In this document: positions 26,940 to 33,211 of the stretch, piece by piece | Layout of the letters: the number at the start of each line of letters is the position of its first letter | Position numbering within the stretch: position 1 is the stretch's first letter | Assembly: GCA_963676205.2 (NCBI GenBank) | Contig: CAXXUS010000001.1 | Location: 79,725 to 143,724, forward strand | Reading direction: 5' to 3' | Length of the DNA stretch: 64,000 nucleotides | DNA from: Arcobacteraceae bacterium | GTDB taxonomy: Bacteria; Campylobacterota; Campylobacteria; Campylobacterales; Arcobacteraceae | Notes under the pieces: model-generated | Told to the model about the DNA's origin: nothing | Databases searched by the model: none | Seen by the model: only the letters and a program-made list of their open reading frames with translations | Made by a program: the position numbers and the translations under genes

Positions 26940-27194
26940 ATGGTACAAAATATGTCATCACAAAAAGTAACTGTTACTATACCTTATGAACTAAAAGAGA
27001 AACTAAATAATTTAAAAGATGAACTTCACACTTCAGTTTCTGCGATATATAAAGAAGCATTAGAAAACTATTTAGAAAAAAAAGAGTTAGAAAAATGGCA
27101 AGATGGTGCAAACTTAGCTTCAAAAGATAAGAACTATTTAGAGTTTGTAAATGAACTAAATAGTGATCTTGGAGATGATATATATGAATATTAA
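26940..27194 (+). CDS. Ribbon-helix-helix (CopG/MazE-like) antitoxin
   Basis: 84 aa. KVTVTIPYELKEKLNNLKDEL is an RHH beta-strand/helix start. Overlaps the toxin gene by 11 nt. Confidence 0.65.
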   Translation: MVQNMSSQKVTVTIPYELKEKLNNLKDELHTSVSAIYKEALENYLEKKELEKWQDGANLASKDKNYLEFVNELNSDLGDDIYEY

Positions 27195-27543
27195 CCAAGG
27201 AGAGATTTGGGAAGTGGAGTTTTTTCCAAAAGTTGGAAGTGAGATCACTAAAAAAAGACCAGCAATCGTTATAAACCATGACCTTATAGGAAAACTACCT
27301 TTAAAAACCATTGTTCCTATTACAAACTGGTCAAACTCTTTTGAAAACTATCCTTGGATGTATAAATTAGAACAAAATGAATTAAATGGTTTATCAAAAA
27401 TATCAGGAGTTGACTGCTTTCAAATAAAAAACTTCTCTATTAATAGATTTAAAACCAAAATTGGTATAGTTAATGAAACTCAACTTCAAGAGATTCATAA
27501 TATTGTGATAAAAACATTAAATCCTAAATACAAATGTGTTTAA
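27184..27543 (+). CDS. MazF/PemK-family endoribonuclease toxin
   Basis: GEIWEVEFFPKVGSEITKKRPAIVINHD, PLKTIVPIT, DCFQIKNFSINRF. Start placed at ATG 27184 (MNINQGEIW). Confidence 0.85.
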   Translation: MNINQGEIWEVEFFPKVGSEITKKRPAIVINHDLIGKLPLKTIVPITNWSNSFENYPWMYKLEQNELNGLSKISGVDCFQIKNFSINRFKTKIGIVNETQLQEIHNIVIKTLNPKYKCV

Positions 27544-27716
27544 TCATCGCTATTATCTCTTTTGTATTTGCCTATAATTTTTATATAGACGCTAATATTG
27601 CTTCTGCAATTGTAAGTGGAGTGATAGGTCTTGGATTTGCTTTATTAATGGGTAGGAATATTTTGAAGACTAAAAGGGAAAGAGATATGAGTAAAGAAAC
27701 AACCTCTACAAAATAA
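27534..27716 (+). CDS. Small two-TM membrane protein (hypothetical)
   Basis: 60 aa. Two hydrophobic helices, then a basic tail (KTKRERD). Overlaps the toxin stop by 10 nt. No homology recognised. Confidence 0.35.
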   Translation: MCLIIAIISFVFAYNFYIDANIASAIVSGVIGLGFALLMGRNILKTKRERDMSKETTSTK

Positions 27717-27734
27717 AGATTAATCTTAATATAT

Positions 27735-28388
27735 TTAGAACTTTACAATTATTCCATAGTTAAAGGTAAATAGATTCTTCTTAAAAGCTTCACCATAGTC
27801 AGGATCATCATAAAAATATTTATAGGTAGGACCTGCATATAGCTCAAAAACATTACCAAAATGAATTGTAATTCCAAGACCTAAAAGTAAATTTAGATCA
27901 CTTCTAAATCTTAACTTTTTTAAACTTTCAGGTGTATGACTTGCATTTTTTCCATAATCCTGAGTATAATAACCATATCCCAGTTTTACAAATGGTCTAA
28001 GTCCATTTAAATATTCAGGTGATGCTTCTAAAGTTAGGATTAAGTCTGAACCGTATATGCTAAAACCTTCTTTGTTAACATATTCGTAATATCCTTCTCC
28101 ATCAATATATGTTTCATAATACGAAAGTTCAAGTTTACCATTTTTAAAATAATAGCCGACTCCTGCTGCTCATCCATAATATCCATAACTCGATGTATAA
28201 GATACATTTACAAAAAAACCTTGATTATTTATTCTTGAGTCATTAGATTTTCCTTTATAGGAATCACTAGAATCAAGAACTGTTGCAGTTGTCATATTAA
28301 ATTCAAAAAAATCTGCTATTGAATCACTACTTGCATATACTTTAAAATTAACAAATAAAATTAAAATAGAAAAAAATATGTTTTTAAT
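27735..28388 (-). pseudogene. Decayed outer-membrane beta-barrel protein gene
   Basis: My own minus-strand translation gives a signal peptide (IKNIFFSILILFVNFKVYA) and Tyr/Gly-rich alternating strands ending ...FTFNYGIIVKF*. The initiator position is ATT (AAGGA 6 nt upstream). An in-frame TGA lies at 28170-28172 (YYG*AAGVGYYF). Absent from the ORF track for these reasons. Confidence 0.65.
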
Positions 28389-28728
28389 TGTATATCCTTA
28401 AATATTATGAAGTAAGATTATATCTAAATAGCTGTCACAAATGCGTCACAAAATTGCCATTACAAAATAAAGATTGTGTTTGTAATCTAATTCGTGGATG
28501 AATGCCTTTCTTTTTATCCGTAAAAAGAAACAAAAACTCTTCCACCCGATAAAATGTAATCTCAAGCTTCCATAAAATATTTTCTGATGTCAAAAACTCA
28601 AAATAAAACCTTCATTTAGAAGCTTTTATTTTTCAGACAGTTTTCCATCTTTTCCGAAAATATTTTACTCCATCTTGGCATTTTAACAGGGTGGAATTTT
28701 TTCTTTGGTAGCTAGCTTCACCGTCAGG

Positions 28729-28750
28729 CAATCCACATTTGCAGAAGCTA
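28729..28750. repeat. Left copy of the imperfect inverted repeat flanking the IS110-family recombinase
   Basis: CAATCCACATTTGCAGAAGCTA versus the reverse complement of 30158-30177 (CAACCACATTTCGAAGCCTA): 19 matching positions with small indels. Confidence 0.4.
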
Positions 28751-29051
28751 AAAATTTGAGATATTTTTTACGTAACAAGCTGAGGACTCGTATAATATAA
28801 ATATTGAAAATATAGTAATATATTTTCATAGAGTTCATAAAGATAATATATCTGAGTTGAGGACAAAGCAACTAAAATAATTTTGGTTAGCTTGGCAGAC
28901 AGTTTGATAGTTATACTTTAAATTTGAGTAGCAACAAGAACAGTTTTAACTAGTTCGTATTTTACGAGTCTAAATTTAGTATAAATAAATTATCGAGTAG
29001 GATTTGATCCTACTCTAACGAACTCTTTATATTAAAACAAAGGTTCCAAGT

Positions 29052-30032
29052 ATGTATTCTATCGGATTAGATATTAGTAAATCAACTATAAATGTATATA
29101 TTCCAAAAAACGATTTAGATTTAGTTATTGATAATAGTTTAAAATCTATAAAATCTTTATATTCAAAGTTAAAGAAGTTATATCAAAAAGATATCGATAA
29201 ATTAGCATTTATATTTGAGCCAACTGCAAATTATTCTACTACATTAAGATATTTTTGTAGCGAAAATAGAATTAAATGCTTTATTGTAAACCCTAAACAG
29301 AGTTCTAACTTTTCTAAAGCATTAGGAGAGAGAAATAAAACAGATTTAACTGATGCTAGAGTATTATCTAAAATGGAATCTATAGCTCTAAAAGAGGATA
29401 TCAAAGTTCCCATTATCAATGTGCTTGTTGAAGAGTTAAATGAGTTAGTTTCTTATTATAGATTACTAACTAAACAAAAGCTTCAAAATAAAAATCATTT
29501 AGAAGCTTTATTAGCAAAGTTTGAATCTTCTATAGTGATTAAAGAGCTAAAAAAAGAGATTTTAAATTTAGAAAAAAAAGAAAAAATGATTATTAAAAAG
29601 ATAATCGATTTAATAAAAAAAGATGAAAACTTATATCAAGCTTTTAATAATATAAAATCAATTAAAGGTATAGGAGATTTATCTGCTATAGTCCTTTTAC
29701 ATCACTTTATAAAATATCCAAATGCAAATCAAAGGGAAATAATATCTTTAGCTGGCTTAGACCCAATATGTAAGGAATCGGGTACATCATTAAAGAAGAA
29801 AGCAAAGATATCAAAAGCAGGTTCTAAAATATGTAGATCAACTTTATTTATGGCTTCATTAGTATCAATACAGTTTAACGAAGAGATAAAACTATTTTAT
29901 ACAAGATTAAAAAACAATGGTAAACATACTACAGTGGCACAAATTGCAGTAATGAGAAAGTTAATTATAATCGCTCATTCTTTATACAAAAATAATCAAA
30001 CATATAATCCTTTAAAATATAAATCTAACTAA
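29052..30032 (+). CDS. IS110-family DEDD transposase/recombinase
   Basis: RuvC-like N-terminus (IGLDISKST, FIFEPTANYS, DLTDARVL). C-terminal Tnp module (IKGIGDLSAIVLL, SLAGLDP, ISKAGSKICRSTLFMASL). 326 aa. Confidence 0.9.
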   Translation: MYSIGLDISKSTINVYIPKNDLDLVIDNSLKSIKSLYSKLKKLYQKDIDKLAFIFEPTANYSTTLRYFCSENRIKCFIVNPKQSSNFSKALGERNKTDLTDARVLSKMESIALKEDIKVPIINVLVEELNELVSYYRLLTKQKLQNKNHLEALLAKFESSIVIKELKKEILNLEKKEKMIIKKIIDLIKKDENLYQAFNNIKSIKGIGDLSAIVLLHHFIKYPNANQREIISLAGLDPICKESGTSLKKKAKISKAGSKICRSTLFMASLVSIQFNEEIKLFYTRLKNNGKHTTVAQIAVMRKLIIIAHSLYKNNQTYNPLKYKSN

Positions 30033-30157
30033 GTGTTTTTTTACTATTTTTTAAGGTAGCAACTGTTTGAATGGATAAAGGTGCTAAATGCACCTTTAGG
30101 AATGAGTTCCGCAAGCAAGTAAAACAATATCGATAATTTTTAGGTACCTATCGTAGA

Positions 30158-30177
30158 TAGGCTTCGAAATGTGGTTG
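30158..30177. repeat. Right copy of the imperfect inverted repeat flanking the IS110-family recombinase
   Basis: TAGGCTTCGAAATGTGGTTG is the reverse-complement partner of 28729-28750. Confidence 0.4.
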
Positions 30178-30250
30178 TTTTTGGTTACTTTTTGTCAATA
30201 CAAAAGTAACATAAGCGAAAAGCTAAAAGCCTTTCAAAAAAAGAAAGAAA

Positions 30251-33211
30251 CTATTCCTCTTCCACCGCACTATAATGCAATTCAAGTCCTTTACTTGTAG
30301 TTACAAAACCGTTAATATTTAAACGCCCCTCATGCACCATCTTATGGTGTTTTTTACAAAGTGGGATAAGGTTGAATTTATGGTTTTGGTTAATATGCCC
30401 TATAAATCCTCTCTCATCGGCACTTTGCTGCTCTTTTATATGATGTACCTCATCCACGGGTGCCCCACATATTGCGCAAGTGCTCATATAAAGATCACGG
30501 TTGTATTTTGAGGTTTTTTTGTGCGTTAATCGCTCAACAGAACTGTAATCATCGGTGATACGTTTACGAATATCATTTGCAACGCGTAAAAACTCACTAT
30601 CCATATGCAAGGATTTTGCAAACTCTAAGCCGTAAATTGAACTACCGCTTCCGTATTTTAGTTTTCTATCAAAGATCAGTTTATCTTTCTCATCCTCATA
30701 CATTACACTTAAGTGCAAGCAGATAATATTTGTAAGTTTTTCTATCTCTTCAAGCTCGGGGAGCTGGTGTAGGTGTGTCGCAAAAAGGAAGATCGATTCA
30801 AGTTTTGCTAGTTTTAAAATAGCACTTGCAACAATACTTACTCCACTCATAGTCTCGGTTGAGTGACTGATCTCATCACCTAAAACAAGCGAGTTTTTTG
30901 TAGCACGGTTAAATATATTTTTTAGCTCCATCATCTCTACAGCGAACGATGAAAGCCCTTTTGCGATATTATCGCTTCCGCTGATTCTTGTAAATACTGC
31001 GTCAAAAATAGCAAAACGCATCGACTTTGCAGGTACGAAAAATCCAGCTTGAGCTAAGATCACTGCCATCCCTACAGATTTCATTAGTGAGCTTTTTCCA
31101 CTGCTGTTGATCCCATAAAGCAATACACCGTGCATATGGTTTTGAAGCAGATTTACAGGTCGTGCATTTTTAATGATCACATTATCTTTTTGCTCTTTTC
31201 CAGCAAGTCCTAGATCACCTAGAATAATATCGTTTGGTACATATATACCACCCTCTTCGTTTGATTCTATGATCGGGTGGCGCAGTTCTAAAACCTCTAT
31301 AAAGTTTTGATCATCTTTAGCTTTTACGATTTTAGGGCACACATAGTTGTATTTTTTTGCCGTTTTAATATTAGATACAGTTAGGTCAACCTCGGCGATA
31401 AAACTAACAAGTTCTTCTAAAAGAGAGGCGAATTTTTTCTCAAACTCTTTGACTTTCTCTTTAAATACAAGCTTATTAAGCTCTATTATCTTTTGCTGGT
31501 TTGCTACATATTTATCGCTGATATTCTCGATCAAAGTGTTTGTGATCTTTACGTTATTGGTCTGCACTTTTATATTAAAATCTTTAAACAAATACAGTTC
31601 ATCATCAATAATTAGGTGTGAAGCTTCAAGCTCTTTTTTTATTAGGTTGTAGCGGTTTTTAGTGATCCCTAAAAAGAACCCCTCTTTTTCTAGGCGGTTG
31701 ATACTTACAAAGTTTGTATCGCTTGTATTTAAAAACCCTAAGATATGTTCTCTAAACACCTCTAGCTTTTGTTTTAGTTCACTATTTTGGAAGTTAAGCT
31801 CATCGATTTGAAGATTTACGCCAGCACTTATCATATTATCTTCCACATCTTTTAACATATAGCGTCCACTCACACTTAGATCAAAAGTGGCATTGATATT
31901 ATCGATAAACTGCATTATATCACCCGAACTGCATGGCGGTGTTACAAACTTATAGTTCTCCATAAACGTAACGATCTCTTTAATACTTAAAAGTGAATCG
32001 TTAAGATAATTTAGCTCAAAAGGGTGCAGACGATTTAGTTTTATACGTCTTGTAAGGCGCTCTATATCATAGATATTTGCCAGCTCATTTTCTATAGGCG
32101 CGGTGTAATCATAAAGCTCTTTAGATAGGTTGTACCTACGCTGTAGCTCTTTGGCATCTTTGATAGGATGGGTTAAACGCTCTTTTAAAAGCCTCTTTCC
32201 CATAGCAGTTGAAGTATTTGTTAAAAGTCTTAAGAGTGATGGGTTATGGGTGGTCTCAATAATATTTAACTGCTCTAAGGCATTGTTTCCAAGGTAAACA
32301 TATTTGCTTACATCAAGTTTTACGGGGTGGCTTAGTTTTTGGATAATATTTGCATCATGCCCTATTACAAAATCTATTAAAATAGCTAAAGACTCAGAAG
32401 CTATCGGGTAGCGCTCTAGATCTAAATGCTCTATAGGGGTTAGAAGAGATTCAATATTAAATACGTTTTTAAATAGCTCATTTTGATACCCTATCTTAGC
32501 TCTAAAATTTGAGATATGAAAGGTTTTTTTTGAAAGCTCTAGATACTCAATGATCTCATTTTGGTTTATATTTTTATCACAAAATGTTACAACCACTTCC
32601 GAGGTTTTATGCATATTCATATAGTTAAACACTTCATCTAAAGCAAAGCTTGGATCCTCGCTTGTACCGTACACTTCGTTGATATAACATTTTCCCGTTG
32701 TTACATCTATTGCACTGTAACCCACTAAATAGTTGCCGTTTATTTGATCTATAGTTAAAGAGGTGATATTGTTCTCATCTTGATTTACCACAAAATCAAA
32801 GTTCGTCCCTGGGCTTATCACTGCATCTAAATAGCGGCTTACTTTTGGCGGTACACCTTTTTGTTTGATAATAGCTACAGTGTATTTTTGCTCATTTATA
32901 ATACGCGCTAAGTGTTTTTCAAAAGAGATCGCTGGAACACCTGCCATCATAGGATTCTCTTGGGAGTTTTCTAAAATAGTTTTATTTTTACGAGTAAGCT
33001 GAATATTTAAAAGCTCTGCTATCTCTTTAGCTTTACCTATCTGCTCCTCATCGTTATTTACCTCATACACTTCATAAAAAGTACCAAGCTCCATTAAAAC
33101 AACACTGTGTTTACCGTATTTGCTCTCAAAAAGTTTTTGAAGCTTAAAATAGGTGACCGTTAAAAGCTCTTTTTTATTCTCTAATAGTTCTGCTACCTCT
33201 TGTGCAAGCAT
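30251..33211 (-). CDS. MutS-family protein with C-terminal HNH endonuclease (MutS7-type)
   Basis: Mismatch-domain-like N-terminus (GTFYEVYE, MAGVPAISFEKHL). ABC ATPase (GINSSGKSSLMKSVG; LVLGDEISHSTET; ATH). C-terminal HNH (CAICGAPVDEVHHIKEQ...NLIPLCKKHHKMVHEG). 986 aa. Confidence 0.85.
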   Translation of the reverse strand: MLAQEVAELLENKKELLTVTYFKLQKLFESKYGKHSVVLMELGTFYEVYEVNNDEEQIGKAKEIAELLNIQLTRKNKTILENSQENPMMAGVPAISFEKHLARIINEQKYTVAIIKQKGVPPKVSRYLDAVISPGTNFDFVVNQDENNITSLTIDQINGNYLVGYSAIDVTTGKCYINEVYGTSEDPSFALDEVFNYMNMHKTSEVVVTFCDKNINQNEIIEYLELSKKTFHISNFRAKIGYQNELFKNVFNIESLLTPIEHLDLERYPIASESLAILIDFVIGHDANIIQKLSHPVKLDVSKYVYLGNNALEQLNIIETTHNPSLLRLLTNTSTAMGKRLLKERLTHPIKDAKELQRRYNLSKELYDYTAPIENELANIYDIERLTRRIKLNRLHPFELNYLNDSLLSIKEIVTFMENYKFVTPPCSSGDIMQFIDNINATFDLSVSGRYMLKDVEDNMISAGVNLQIDELNFQNSELKQKLEVFREHILGFLNTSDTNFVSINRLEKEGFFLGITKNRYNLIKKELEASHLIIDDELYLFKDFNIKVQTNNVKITNTLIENISDKYVANQQKIIELNKLVFKEKVKEFEKKFASLLEELVSFIAEVDLTVSNIKTAKKYNYVCPKIVKAKDDQNFIEVLELRHPIIESNEEGGIYVPNDIILGDLGLAGKEQKDNVIIKNARPVNLLQNHMHGVLLYGINSSGKSSLMKSVGMAVILAQAGFFVPAKSMRFAIFDAVFTRISGSDNIAKGLSSFAVEMMELKNIFNRATKNSLVLGDEISHSTETMSGVSIVASAILKLAKLESIFLFATHLHQLPELEEIEKLTNIICLHLSVMYEDEKDKLIFDRKLKYGSGSSIYGLEFAKSLHMDSEFLRVANDIRKRITDDYSSVERLTHKKTSKYNRDLYMSTCAICGAPVDEVHHIKEQQSADERGFIGHINQNHKFNLIPLCKKHHKMVHEGRLNINGFVTTSKGLELHYSAVEEE

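What the first reader, a model, noticed from the sequence alone, without database searches (positions are those of the whole stretch)
28700..30215. IS110/IS1111-family recombinase embedded in long, structured non-coding arms: candidate bridge/seek guide RNA
Seen in the sequence:
- ORF 29052-30032 is a DEDD (RuvC-like) recombinase. It lies in about 320 nt (left) and about 145 nt (right) of non-coding DNA. These arms are bounded by an imperfect inverted repeat, 28729-28750 (CAATCCACATTTGCAGAAGCTA) against the reverse complement of 30158-30177 (CAACCACATTTCGAAGCCTA), which gives a 1449-bp unit.
- Perfect hairpins lie inside the arms: 28995-29015 (8 bp), 30077-30097 (8 bp) and 30147-30161 (6 bp).
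- Just outside the IRs lie palindromes: AGCTAGCT at 28710-28717 and a 9-bp perfect hairpin at 30184-30210.
- Short internal copies of flank or end sequence occur. TTTTGGTTA is at 28881-28889 (internal) and 30179-30187 (right flank), with TTTGGTAGCT at 28704-28713 (left flank). AAATTTGAG is at 28752-28760 and 28920-28928. GTAGCAAC is at 28928-28935 and 30056-30063. The last two abut each other in the internal copy.

Established knowledge: IS110-group elements encode a bridge RNA in the left non-coding arm, and IS1111-group elements encode a seekRNA in the right arm. The loops of these RNAs carry guides matching the target and the element ends. IS1111-type elements often insert next to palindromic sequences.

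Inference: one arm here encodes such a guide RNA, and the short repeats could be its guide segments. Taken singly, the 8-9-mers are close to chance expectation in AT-rich DNA, so this remains a hypothesis.
Basis: partly seen in the sequence, partly recalled or inferred. Interest (0 to 1): 0.7.

Follow-up and report, generated by a model that had tools for sequence, protein, structure and literature searches.

The report
IS110 insertion sequence with bridge RNA
This is an ordinary but intact IS110-type mobile element whose left end encodes a "bridge" guide RNA matching both its own ends and its insertion site; the inverted repeat thought to bound it belongs to a host repeat it landed in.

Summary
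The ORF at 29052-30032 is an IS110-family DEDD/Ser recombinase. The element's limits and type need correcting.

- **Limits.** Comparison with 91 related loci and with uninterrupted homologous sites puts the element at 28789-30064. That is 1276 bp, flanked by the CT core on both sides. The left end is 263 nt and the right end only 32 nt.
- **Type.** This is the IS110 group (bridge RNA in the left end), not IS1111/seekRNA.
- **Guides.**
  - LTG 28855-28864 matches the left target.
  - RTG 28896-28902 pairs with the right target.
  - LDG 28928-28935 equals the right end.
  - RDG 28960-28968 pairs with the left end.
  - Both 2-nt handshake guides fit.
- **Family-wide support.** Guide-target matching beat all 10,000 permutations. 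LDG equals the right end in 45 of 45 loci over five variants. Twenty-seven of 46 helix pairs show compensatory changes. A covariance model built without the window hits it once (117 bits).
The repeat at 28729-50/30158-77 and the right-arm hairpins lie outside the element. They belong to a palindromic host repeat that is the target.
Only GTAGCAAC is functional.

This is a new member of a known kind, of modest interest.

The parts
28729..28769 (.). Left arm of a palindromic host repeat. It is not part of the insertion sequence.
   Evidence: It lies outside the homology with relatives. It pairs with 30122-30177 (I7). Homologous uninterrupted repeats occur in L003, L005, L007 and L011.
28778..28788 (+). 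Left target (AGCTGAGGA) plus the left copy of the CT core (28787-28788).
   Evidence: The junction was defined from 8 copies in two Arcobacter genomes and from empty sites. It matches the LTG at 9 of 10 positions; the tenth is a G.U wobble.
28789..30064 (+). The insertion sequence proper: 1276 bp including the right copy of the CT core. Left end 28789-29051, recombinase gene 29052-30032, right end 30033-30064.
   Evidence: These are the limits of DNA homology to relatives. The empty-site reconstruction agrees.
28791..28796 (+). TATAAT -10 box, 3 nt inside the left end. It is the presumed bridge-RNA promoter element.
   Evidence: The motif CGTATAAT is conserved in nearly all of 59 left ends. 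The promoter scan finds TTTACG-18-TATAAT. The function is inferred from IS621 (PMC11208160).
28805..28828 (+). 5' stem-loop of the bridge RNA (10 bp).
   Evidence: Present in the minimum-free-energy fold. A hairpin with a different sequence sits at the same place in relatives.
28830..28836 (+). 5' strand (AGAGTTC) of a long-range closing helix. It pairs with 29020-29026.
   Evidence: RNAalifold helix 1 is 98.5% paired, with one compensatory pair.
28849..28909 (+). Target-binding loop. Basal stem TATC/GATA. LTG 28855-28864 on the 5' side. Apical stem 28866-28892. RTG 28896-28902 and handshake TT 28903-28904 on the 3' side.
   Evidence: Helices 2 and 3 have 9 compensatory pairs. The loop sequences are hypervariable among relatives and covary with the flanks, with 0 of 10,000 permutations reaching the observed match.
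28855..28864 (+). Left target guide (LTG), AGTTGAGGAC. It has the same sense as the top strand of the left target, 28778-28787.
   Evidence: (D15). The geometry follows Durrant 2024.
28896..28902 (+). Right target guide (RTG), CAGACAG. It pairs with the top strand CTGTTTG at 30063-30069 through 6 Watson-Crick pairs and 1 G.T.
28910..28985 (+). Donor-binding loop. Basal stem 28910-16/28979-85. LDG 28928-28935. Apical stem 28938-28956. RDG 28960-28968. Handshake TC 28969-28970.
   Evidence: Helices 4, 5 and 7 have 14 compensatory pairs. The loop sequences are conserved and covary with the element ends.
28928..28935 (+). Left donor guide (LDG), GTAGCAAC. It is identical to the right end plus core C, 30056-30063.
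   Evidence: LDG equals the right end in 45 of 45 loci over five sequence variants. The window is the only GTAGCAAC/GTAGCAAC case.
28960..28968 (+). Right donor guide (RDG), TTTTACGAG. It is the reverse complement of core plus left-end start, CTCGTAtAA (28787-28795), matching at 8 of 9 positions.
   Evidence: It covaries in relatives: CTTAT with ATAAG, and CTCAT with ATGAG.
28995..29015 (+). Conserved 3' hairpin of the left-end RNA (9 bp).
   Evidence: Several different stem sequences occur among relatives with pairing kept (helix 8).
29020..29026 (+). 3' strand (GAACTCT) of the closing helix. It ends 13 nt before the ribosome-binding site AAAGG.
29052..30032 (+). IS110-family recombinase gene (326 aa). 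It has a RuvC-like DEDD domain, a coiled coil and a Tnp domain with the catalytic Ser-Gly.
   Evidence: Pfam and NCBIfam matches. Full-length match to the ISCro4 (9t56) and IS621 (8wt6) structures at E about 1e-23. D7, E56, D98, D101 and S243-G244 are conserved.
30056..30064 (+). Right end of the element (left donor, GTAGCAA) plus the right copy of the CT core (30063-30064).
30065..30240 (.). Host palindromic repeat to the right of the insertion. It is not part of the insertion sequence.
   Evidence: It is colinear with uninterrupted repeats elsewhere. The joined flanks fold as one long hairpin, z -6.1.

Best explanation
The element at 28789-30064 is an intact IS110-group insertion sequence, in the sense of IS621, from an Arcobacter-like genome.

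**Anatomy.** Its 263-nt left end encodes a bridge RNA of about 185-225 nt, read from the TATAAT box at 28791-96. The RNA has a 5' hairpin followed by two internal loops.
- The target-binding loop carries LTG AGUUGAGGAC and RTG CAGACAG. [quoted passage not shown]
- The donor-binding loop carries LDG GUAGCAAC and RDG UUUUACGAG. These pair in the same way with the joined element ends, GGTAGCAA-CT-CGTATAA.
- Two-nucleotide handshake guides follow each loop: UU after the RTG and UC after the RDG. They pair with the non-cognate partner, donor AA and target GA.

**Mechanism.** The 326-aa DEDD/Ser recombinase, guided by this RNA, recombines a circular excised copy with the target at the CT core. This leaves CT on both sides.

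**Target.** The target lies in the apical part of a palindromic host repeat.

**Basis.**
- Shown here: limits, core, family, RNA structure, and guide complementarity with covariation.
- Inferred from IS621 and ISCro4 work: transcription, the circular intermediate and the catalysis.
For: **Protein.** Pfam and NCBIfam IS110 models score above their cut-offs. The protein aligns over its full length to the IS621 and ISCro4 structures, with DEDD and Ser-Gly conserved.

**Limits.** Eight copies in A. iocasae and Arcobacter sp. LRMN1-1 are invariant exactly from CT|CGTATAAT to GGCAA|CT and diverge outside those points. Window homology to all relatives spans 28787-30064. The joined flanks are colinear with uninterrupted repeats reading AGCTGAGGAC-TGTTTGA.

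**RNA.** In an alignment of 48 distinct left ends, the RNAalifold structure is 96.8% paired, against 29-42% when partners are slid. Twenty-seven of 46 pairs have compensatory changes, against 6-10 in the slid controls, and no shuffle in 500 reaches the observed values. The window RNA folds with z -5.4. A covariance model built from 46 relatives without the window hits the window once, at 28845-28987, with 117 bits and E 1.6e-21.

**Guides.** The target-loop sequences are hypervariable and the donor-loop sequences conserved.
- Over 32 distinct target loops, LTG against left target averages 6.8 of 9 for own sites and 4.5 for others.
- RTG against right target averages 6.5 of 7 for own sites and 4.8 for others.
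- In both tests 0 of 10,000 permutations reach the observed value. Controls in the wrong orientation give 216 and 6,493 of 10,000.
- LDG equals the right end in 45 of 45 loci over five variants, and RDG covaries with the left-end start.
- The donor-loop handshake guide pairs with target positions 6-7 (0 of 10,000 permutations). The target-loop handshake guide pairs with donor positions 6-7 (103 of 10,000). Controls against the cognate partner are negative.

Strand geometry and handshake rules are those published for IS621.
Against: - No expression data exist. The transcript ends and the use of the TATAAT box are inferred.
- Only one copy lies in the 64-kb window. No empty site from the same species was available, so recent mobility is not shown.
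- The -35 region at the reconstructed right-left junction is weak (CTATTT).
- Rfam 15 gave no hit. I could not establish whether Rfam holds a bridge-RNA family at all.
- The T of the CT core is not matched by the LTG or the LDG; both carry A after the C. This differs from the IS621 scheme, where both core bases are paired.
- The window's own matches include one G.U and one G.T wobble.
Confidence: 0.93

Rival explanations
1. One reading: a 1449-bp unit bounded by the imperfect inverted repeat 28729-50 / 30158-77, behaving as an IS1111-type element. The repeat would be its sub-terminal inverted repeat, and a seekRNA would be encoded in the 145-nt right arm.
For: The inverted repeat exists and extends further (28748-69 against 30122-43). 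The right arm contains perfect hairpins.
Against: - Homology among relatives stops at 28789 and 30064.
- The right arm and the left 60 nt are homologous to host repeats that occur without any insertion sequence between them.
- The true right end is 32 nt, too short for a guide RNA.
- The family covariance model and the profile HMM find nothing on the right.
- There is no sub-terminal inverted repeat of 7 nt or more in register at the true ends.
Confidence: 0.02
2. The conserved left-end structure is only a promoter and 5'-UTR leader of the recombinase mRNA, for example for translational control. Target choice would then be protein-determined, and the guide-like matches coincidental.
For: The closing helix ends 13 nt before the ribosome-binding site, so the structured RNA is contiguous with the mRNA leader. 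No transcript data are available.
Against: Loop sequences covary with flanking DNA in the strand orientation and register predicted by the IS621 model, and not in the control orientations. LDG tracks five right-end variants in 45 of 45 loci. A leader function would not explain hypervariable loops that match each lineage's own insertion site.
Confidence: 0.03
3. The anatomy is as described, but this copy is a fixed, no longer mobile relic. This concerns activity, not identity.
For: The window holds a single copy. The exact protein is not on record elsewhere. Some relatives are decayed: L009 and others carry premature stops.
Against: The ORF is intact, with all catalytic residues. All four guides and both handshake guides fit their partners. 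Sister elements are multicopy: 5 and 3 copies in two genomes.
Confidence: 0.15

Closest known systems
IS621 (E. coli) and ISCro4: IS110-group bridge recombinases with bridge RNA (Durrant 2024, PMC11208160; Hiraizumi 2024, PMC11208158; PDB 8wt6, 9t56)
   Same: - The domain order is the same, with the DEDD and Ser-Gly catalytic residues.
- The left end is long and the right end short.
- The RNA has a 5' hairpin, then a target loop (LTG on the 5' side, RTG on the 3' side), then a donor loop (LDG on the 5' side, RDG on the 3' side).
- The strand geometry, the CT core and the 2-nt handshake guides that pair with the non-cognate DNA all agree.
- A -10 box sits just inside the left end.
   Different: - The protein matches IS621 and ISCro4 only at E about 1e-23. 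No plasmid-borne IS110 transposase reaches 30% identity.
- The RTG is 7 nt, against 4 in IS621.
- LTG and LDG pair with only the C of the core.
- The RNA has an extra conserved 3' hairpin and a long-range closing helix that reaches almost to the ribosome-binding site.
- The host is an AT-rich Arcobacter-like genome.
ISPpu9 / ISPpu10 of Pseudomonas putida: IS110 elements that insert in REP or other conserved intergenic stem-loop repeats (PMC12288879; bioRxiv 10.64898/2026.03.19.712850)
   Same: The element inserts into a structured, repeated intergenic palindrome. A perfect hairpin lies next to the target, 13 nt to the right of the core, at 30077-30097. Homologous empty sites carry a hairpin at the same place with a different sequence.
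   Different: The repeat family is different: about 175 nt, AT-rich, and unrelated to REP. A role for the neighbouring hairpin in target recognition was not tested here. Sister lineages use different positions within the same repeat.
IS1111-group elements with a seekRNA or bridge RNA in the right end (IS1111A, ISPa11, IS4321/IS5075)
   Same: They belong to the same DEDD recombinase superfamily, use RNA-guided target choice, and tend to insert into repeated or palindromic sequences.
   Different: Here the guide RNA is in the left end, the right end is only 32 nt, and there is no 7-17-bp sub-terminal inverted repeat.

Membership tests
IS110 family (DEDD recombinase) | N-terminal RuvC-like DEDD_Tnp_IS110 domain plus C-terminal Transposase_20 (Tnp) domain, scoring above curated cut-offs. 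| tested here: met
   PF01548 scores 63.3 bits (cut-off 29). PF02371 scores 54.5 bits (cut-off 21.3). NF033542 scores 157.1 bits (cut-off 140).
IS110 family (DEDD recombinase) | Catalytic D, E, D, D and Ser-Gly residues (IS621 D11, E60, D102, D105, S241-G242). | tested here: met
   D7, E56, D98, D101 and S243-G244 sit in conserved motifs that align over the full length with ISCro4, and IS621 gives an equivalent full-length match.
IS110 family (DEDD recombinase) | Insertion flanked by the same short core on both sides, with no classical terminal inverted repeats. | tested here: met
   CT lies at 28787-88 and 30063-64. The same holds in 8 copies of the sister element. No terminal inverted repeat is found at the true ends.
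IS110 group with bridge RNA (IS621-like) | Long non-coding left end and short right end. | tested here: met
   The left end is 263 nt and the right end 32 nt.
IS110 group with bridge RNA (IS621-like) | Conserved structured RNA in the left end with two internal loops, supported by covariation. | tested here: met
   Twenty-seven of 46 pairs are compensatory and 96.8% are paired. The covariance model gives 117 bits.
IS110 group with bridge RNA (IS621-like) | First loop: LTG has the sense of the left-target top strand and RTG is complementary to the right-target top strand. Both covary with the insertion site. | tested here: met
   In the window, 10 of 10 and 7 of 7 positions pair, counting one wobble each. 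Family-wide, 0 of 10,000 permutations reach the observed match, and orientation controls give 216 and 6,493 of 10,000.
IS110 group with bridge RNA (IS621-like) | Second loop: LDG matches the right end plus core and RDG is complementary to the core plus left-end start. | tested here: met
   LDG equals the right end in 45 of 45 loci over 5 variants. RDG covaries with the left-end start.
IS110 group with bridge RNA (IS621-like) | Handshake guides that pair with the non-cognate DNA at positions 6-7 and not with the cognate DNA. | tested here: met
   In the window, TT pairs with AA and TC with GA. Family-wide, 0 of 10,000 permutations (donor loop) and 103 of 10,000 (target loop) reach the observed value. 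Cognate controls are negative.
IS110 group with bridge RNA (IS621-like) | Match to the published bridge-RNA covariance model, or sequence homology of the RNA to the IS621 bridge RNA. | not testable with these tools
   The published model is not available here. Rfam 15 gives no hit. Only a clade-specific model could be built.
IS110 group with bridge RNA (IS621-like) | The RNA is expressed, a circular right-left intermediate forms, and recombination depends on the RNA. | not testable with these tools
   This needs RNA-seq, junction PCR and recombination assays.
IS1111 group (seekRNA or bridge RNA in the right end) | Long right end that encodes the guide RNA, with a short left end. | tested here: not met
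   The right end is 32 nt and the RNA is in the left end.
IS1111 group (seekRNA or bridge RNA in the right end) | Sub-terminal inverted repeats of 7-17 bp at the element ends. | tested here: not met
The best shared 7-mer is out of register in AT-rich sequence.

The most novel reading that the evidence does not exclude
In this Arcobacter clade the bridge RNA may be a longer molecule of about 220 nt than in IS621. A covarying long-range helix (28830-36 / 29020-26) and an extra 3' hairpin tie the guide RNA to the recombinase mRNA leader, ending 13 nt before the ribosome-binding site. This could couple guide folding or processing to recombinase translation.

Sister lineages have also naturally retargeted their target loops to different positions of one palindromic host repeat. 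A neighbouring hairpin, conserved in position but not in sequence, may act as a second, structural target determinant, as proposed for ISPpu10.
Probability: 0.25. Interest if true: 0.45.

Novelty: new member of a known kind. Interest (0 to 1): 0.3.

Why it matters
It adds a compact (326 aa, 1276 bp), apparently intact bridge-recombinase orthologue from an AT-rich Campylobacterota lineage. It is distant from the characterised IS621 and ISCro4 (E about 1e-23), and no plasmid-borne IS110 transposase reaches 30% identity to it.

It comes with a ready-made natural data set. There are 32 distinct target loops with their insertion sites and five donor variants. These independently reproduce the published guide geometry, including handshake guides.

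For annotation, it shows that inverted repeats near an IS110 gene can belong to the targeted host repeat. Element limits should therefore be set by comparing copies.

It does not open a new kind of mechanism.

Tried and rejected
- **Rfam 15.** I scanned the region with permissive thresholds and the whole window at gathering thresholds. Only chance-level snoRNA-like hits below threshold appeared.
- **Exact-protein look-up.** The protein is not on record in public assemblies, so no same-species copy or empty site could be fetched.
- **Other copies in the window.** None were found for the element, its left-end RNA or the host repeat.
- **TTTTGGTTA and AAATTTGAG as guides.** Rejected. In relatives these positions are helix strands conserved or compensated independently of the flanks, and the flank copies lie outside the element.
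- **RNAalifold helix 6.** This helix would pair GTGG of the LDG with TTAC of the RDG. It shows only one-sided changes and was not used in building the covariance model. It may form in the free RNA, but there is no evidence for it.
- **A -35 box at the reconstructed right-left junction.** Only the weak CTATTT was found. The promoter scan of the region is not above shuffled expectation, 15 against 11 +/- 3.3.
- **Plasmid collection search for a named close relative.** All hits are below 30% identity.
- **Literature search for Arcobacter plus IS110.** No papers were found.
Full report
**Observation check.** The ORF at 29052-30032 (+, 326 aa) matches Pfam DEDD_Tnp_IS110 and Transposase_20. It also passes the curated cut-off of NCBIfam NF033542, 'IS110 family RNA-guided transposase', at 157 bits against 140. 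It aligns over its full length with the solved ISCro4 (9t56) and IS621 (8wt6) recombinases at E about 1e-23. The motifs carrying D7, E56, D98, D101 and S243-G244 are conserved. These correspond to IS621 D11, E60, D102, D105 and S241-G242. The number of exact 8- and 9-mer repeats in the two 'arms' is what a first-order Markov model gives: 13 against 8.9 +/- 5.4, and 3 against 2.6 +/- 2.6.

**True limits of the element.** The window holds one copy, and the exact protein is not on record elsewhere. A genome scan found relatives at 62-67% protein identity: five copies in Arcobacter iocasae, three in Arcobacter sp. LRMN1-1, and others in MAGs. Within those two genomes the copies are invariant exactly from ...CT|CGTATAAT to ...GGTGGCAA|CT and diverge outside those points. 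DNA homology between the window and every relative runs only from 28787/28789 to 30064.
- The element is therefore 28789-30064, 1276 bp.
- It is flanked by CT at 28787-88 and 30063-64.
- The left end is 263 nt and the right end 32 nt.

Joining the window's two flanks gives a sequence that is colinear across the junction (AGCTGAGGAC-TGTTTGA) with uninterrupted segments in L003, L005, L007 and L011. These are homologous empty sites. The joined flanks fold as one long imperfect hairpin (-32.3 kcal/mol, z -6.1). The inverted repeat, the right-arm hairpins (30077-97, 30147-61, 30184-210) and the palindrome at 28710-17 therefore belong to a palindromic host repeat, not to the insertion sequence.

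The A. iocasae/LRMN1-1 sister elements sit in the same repeat family at another position, CAACTACGG|CT|TCGAAGCC.

**The RNA.** A metagenome scan added 80 loci, and 59 loci carry a full left end. In an alignment of 48 distinct left ends, RNAalifold predicts:
- a long-range closing helix;
- a first internal loop closed by a basal and an apical stem;
- a second internal loop with basal, middle and apical stems;
- a 3' hairpin.

Of 46 pairs, 27 have compensatory changes. Paired cells reach 96.8%, against 29-42% when the partners are slid by 1-3 columns. No shuffle in 500 reaches the observed values. The window RNA alone folds with z -5.4. A covariance model built from 46 relatives with the window left out hits the 64-kb window once, at 28845-28987 (+), with 117 bits and E 1.6e-21. 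Nothing is found in the right arm.

**Guides.** The IS621 rules are as follows (Durrant 2024). LTG and LDG have the sense of the top strand of the left target and left donor. [quoted passage not shown] The core is included. In the window:

| Guide | Position | Sequence | Partner | Match |
|---|---|---|---|---|
| LTG | 28855-64 | AGTTGAGGAC | left target 28778-87, AGCTGAGGAC | 9 identities; the tenth is a G.U wobble |
| RTG | 28896-902 | CAGACAG | CTGTTTG at 30063-69 | 6 Watson-Crick pairs + 1 G.T |
| LDG | 28928-35 | GTAGCAAC | right end 30056-63 | identical |
| RDG | 28960-68 | TTTTACGAG | CTCGTAtAA at 28787-95 | 8 of 9 |

Across the family the first-loop sequences are hypervariable and the second-loop sequences conserved. 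Over 32 distinct target loops, own-site matching exceeds all 10,000 permutations for both LTG and RTG. Controls in the wrong orientation give 216 and 6,493 of 10,000. LDG equals the right end in 45 of 45 loci across five variants. The window is the sole GTAGCAAC case, which is a compensatory change. RDG tracks the left-end variants CTTAT and CTCAT.

The handshake guides described for IS621 are present too. UU after the RTG pairs with donor AA, and UC after the RDG pairs with target GA. Family-wide, the donor-loop handshake covaries with target positions 6-7 (0 of 10,000 permutations). The target-loop handshake covaries with donor positions 6-7 (103 of 10,000). Neither pairs with its cognate DNA.

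**Mechanism.**
- Shown here: family, catalytic motifs, limits, CT core, RNA structure, and four guides plus handshakes with covariation.
- Inferred from IS621 and ISCro4 work: transcription from the TATAAT box at 28791-96; excision to a circle that joins GGTAGCAA-CT-CGTATAA; assembly of a recombinase tetramer on the RNA with target and donor; and Ser-mediated strand exchange at CT.

Some differences from IS621 were seen:
- the RTG is 7 nt;
- LTG and LDG pair only with the C of the core;
- there is an extra 3' hairpin (28995-29015);
- a closing helix (28830-36 / 29020-26) ends 13 nt before the ribosome-binding site.

**Comparison and novelty.** All testable defining features of an IS110-group bridge-RNA element are met. 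The two defining features of the IS1111 group fail: there is no guide RNA in a long right end, and no 7-17-bp sub-terminal inverted repeat. Insertion into a structured intergenic repeat parallels ISPpu9 and ISPpu10. No paper links Arcobacter and IS110, and plasmid-borne relatives are below 30% identity. The element is thus a new, well-documented member of a known kind.

**Limits of this work.** There is no expression or mobility evidence. No same-species empty site could be fetched. The published bridge-RNA model could not be run, and Rfam gave no hit.

Noticed in passing
L070:128-690: Two tandem copies of the left end and bridge RNA, 99.6% identical, precede the recombinase gene. The junction ATGTATTCT|CGTATAAT fuses the first 9 nt of the ORF, which end in CT, to the left-end start. 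This suggests recombination at an ectopic CT core.
   Followed up: partly
L082:253-1961: A partial left end and a more distant IS110 ORF (46% identity) are followed by a second, full left end of the window's clade with the start of its ORF. Two family members lie in tandem.
   Followed up: no
L010 (JABSQY010000094.1) versus L008: A contig binned as a 'Nanoarchaeales archaeon' MAG carries an element nearly identical to one in a Campylobacteraceae MAG of the same study, in the same kind of target. This is probably binning contamination.
   Followed up: no
L009:1499-1903: The recombinase ORF of this relative has a premature stop at codon 135. Several metagenomic relatives (L031, L061, L081, L083) are also truncated. 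Part of the family is decayed.
   Followed up: partly
window 28634-28643: CAGACAGTTT is an exact 10-nt copy of the RTG plus handshake region (28896-28905). It lies 150 nt to the left of the element, outside the host repeat. It may be chance and is unexplained.
   Followed up: no
window 30158-30177 and L001-L007, L011, L013: Sister elements in A. iocasae, Arcobacter sp. LRMN1-1 and a TARA contig insert at CAACTACGG|CT|TCGAAGCC. This is one arm of the same host repeat family that is unoccupied in the window. Related elements have target loops aimed at different positions of one repeat.
   Followed up: yes
window 30077-30097; L003, L005, L007, L008, L010 and L011 right flanks: A perfect hairpin lies 13 nt to the right of the core. 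Homologous occupied and empty sites carry a hairpin at the same place with a different sequence. It recalls the target stem-loop reported for ISPpu10.
   Followed up: partly
window 30251-33211 (-) and 30216-30236: The neighbouring gene encodes a 986-aa MutS-like protein (domains I, III, V) with a C-terminal HNH nuclease domain. A terminator-like hairpin just downstream of it forms the outer edge of the host repeat.
   Followed up: partly
window 26940-27543 (+): A ribbon-helix-helix antitoxin and a PemK/MazF toxin form a pair with overlapping genes. The next ~1 kb, 27716-28700, has no ORF above 60 aa.
   Followed up: no
window 1-64000: No Rfam family reaches its gathering score anywhere in the 64-kb window. 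There is no rRNA, riboswitch or other curated RNA.
   Followed up: no
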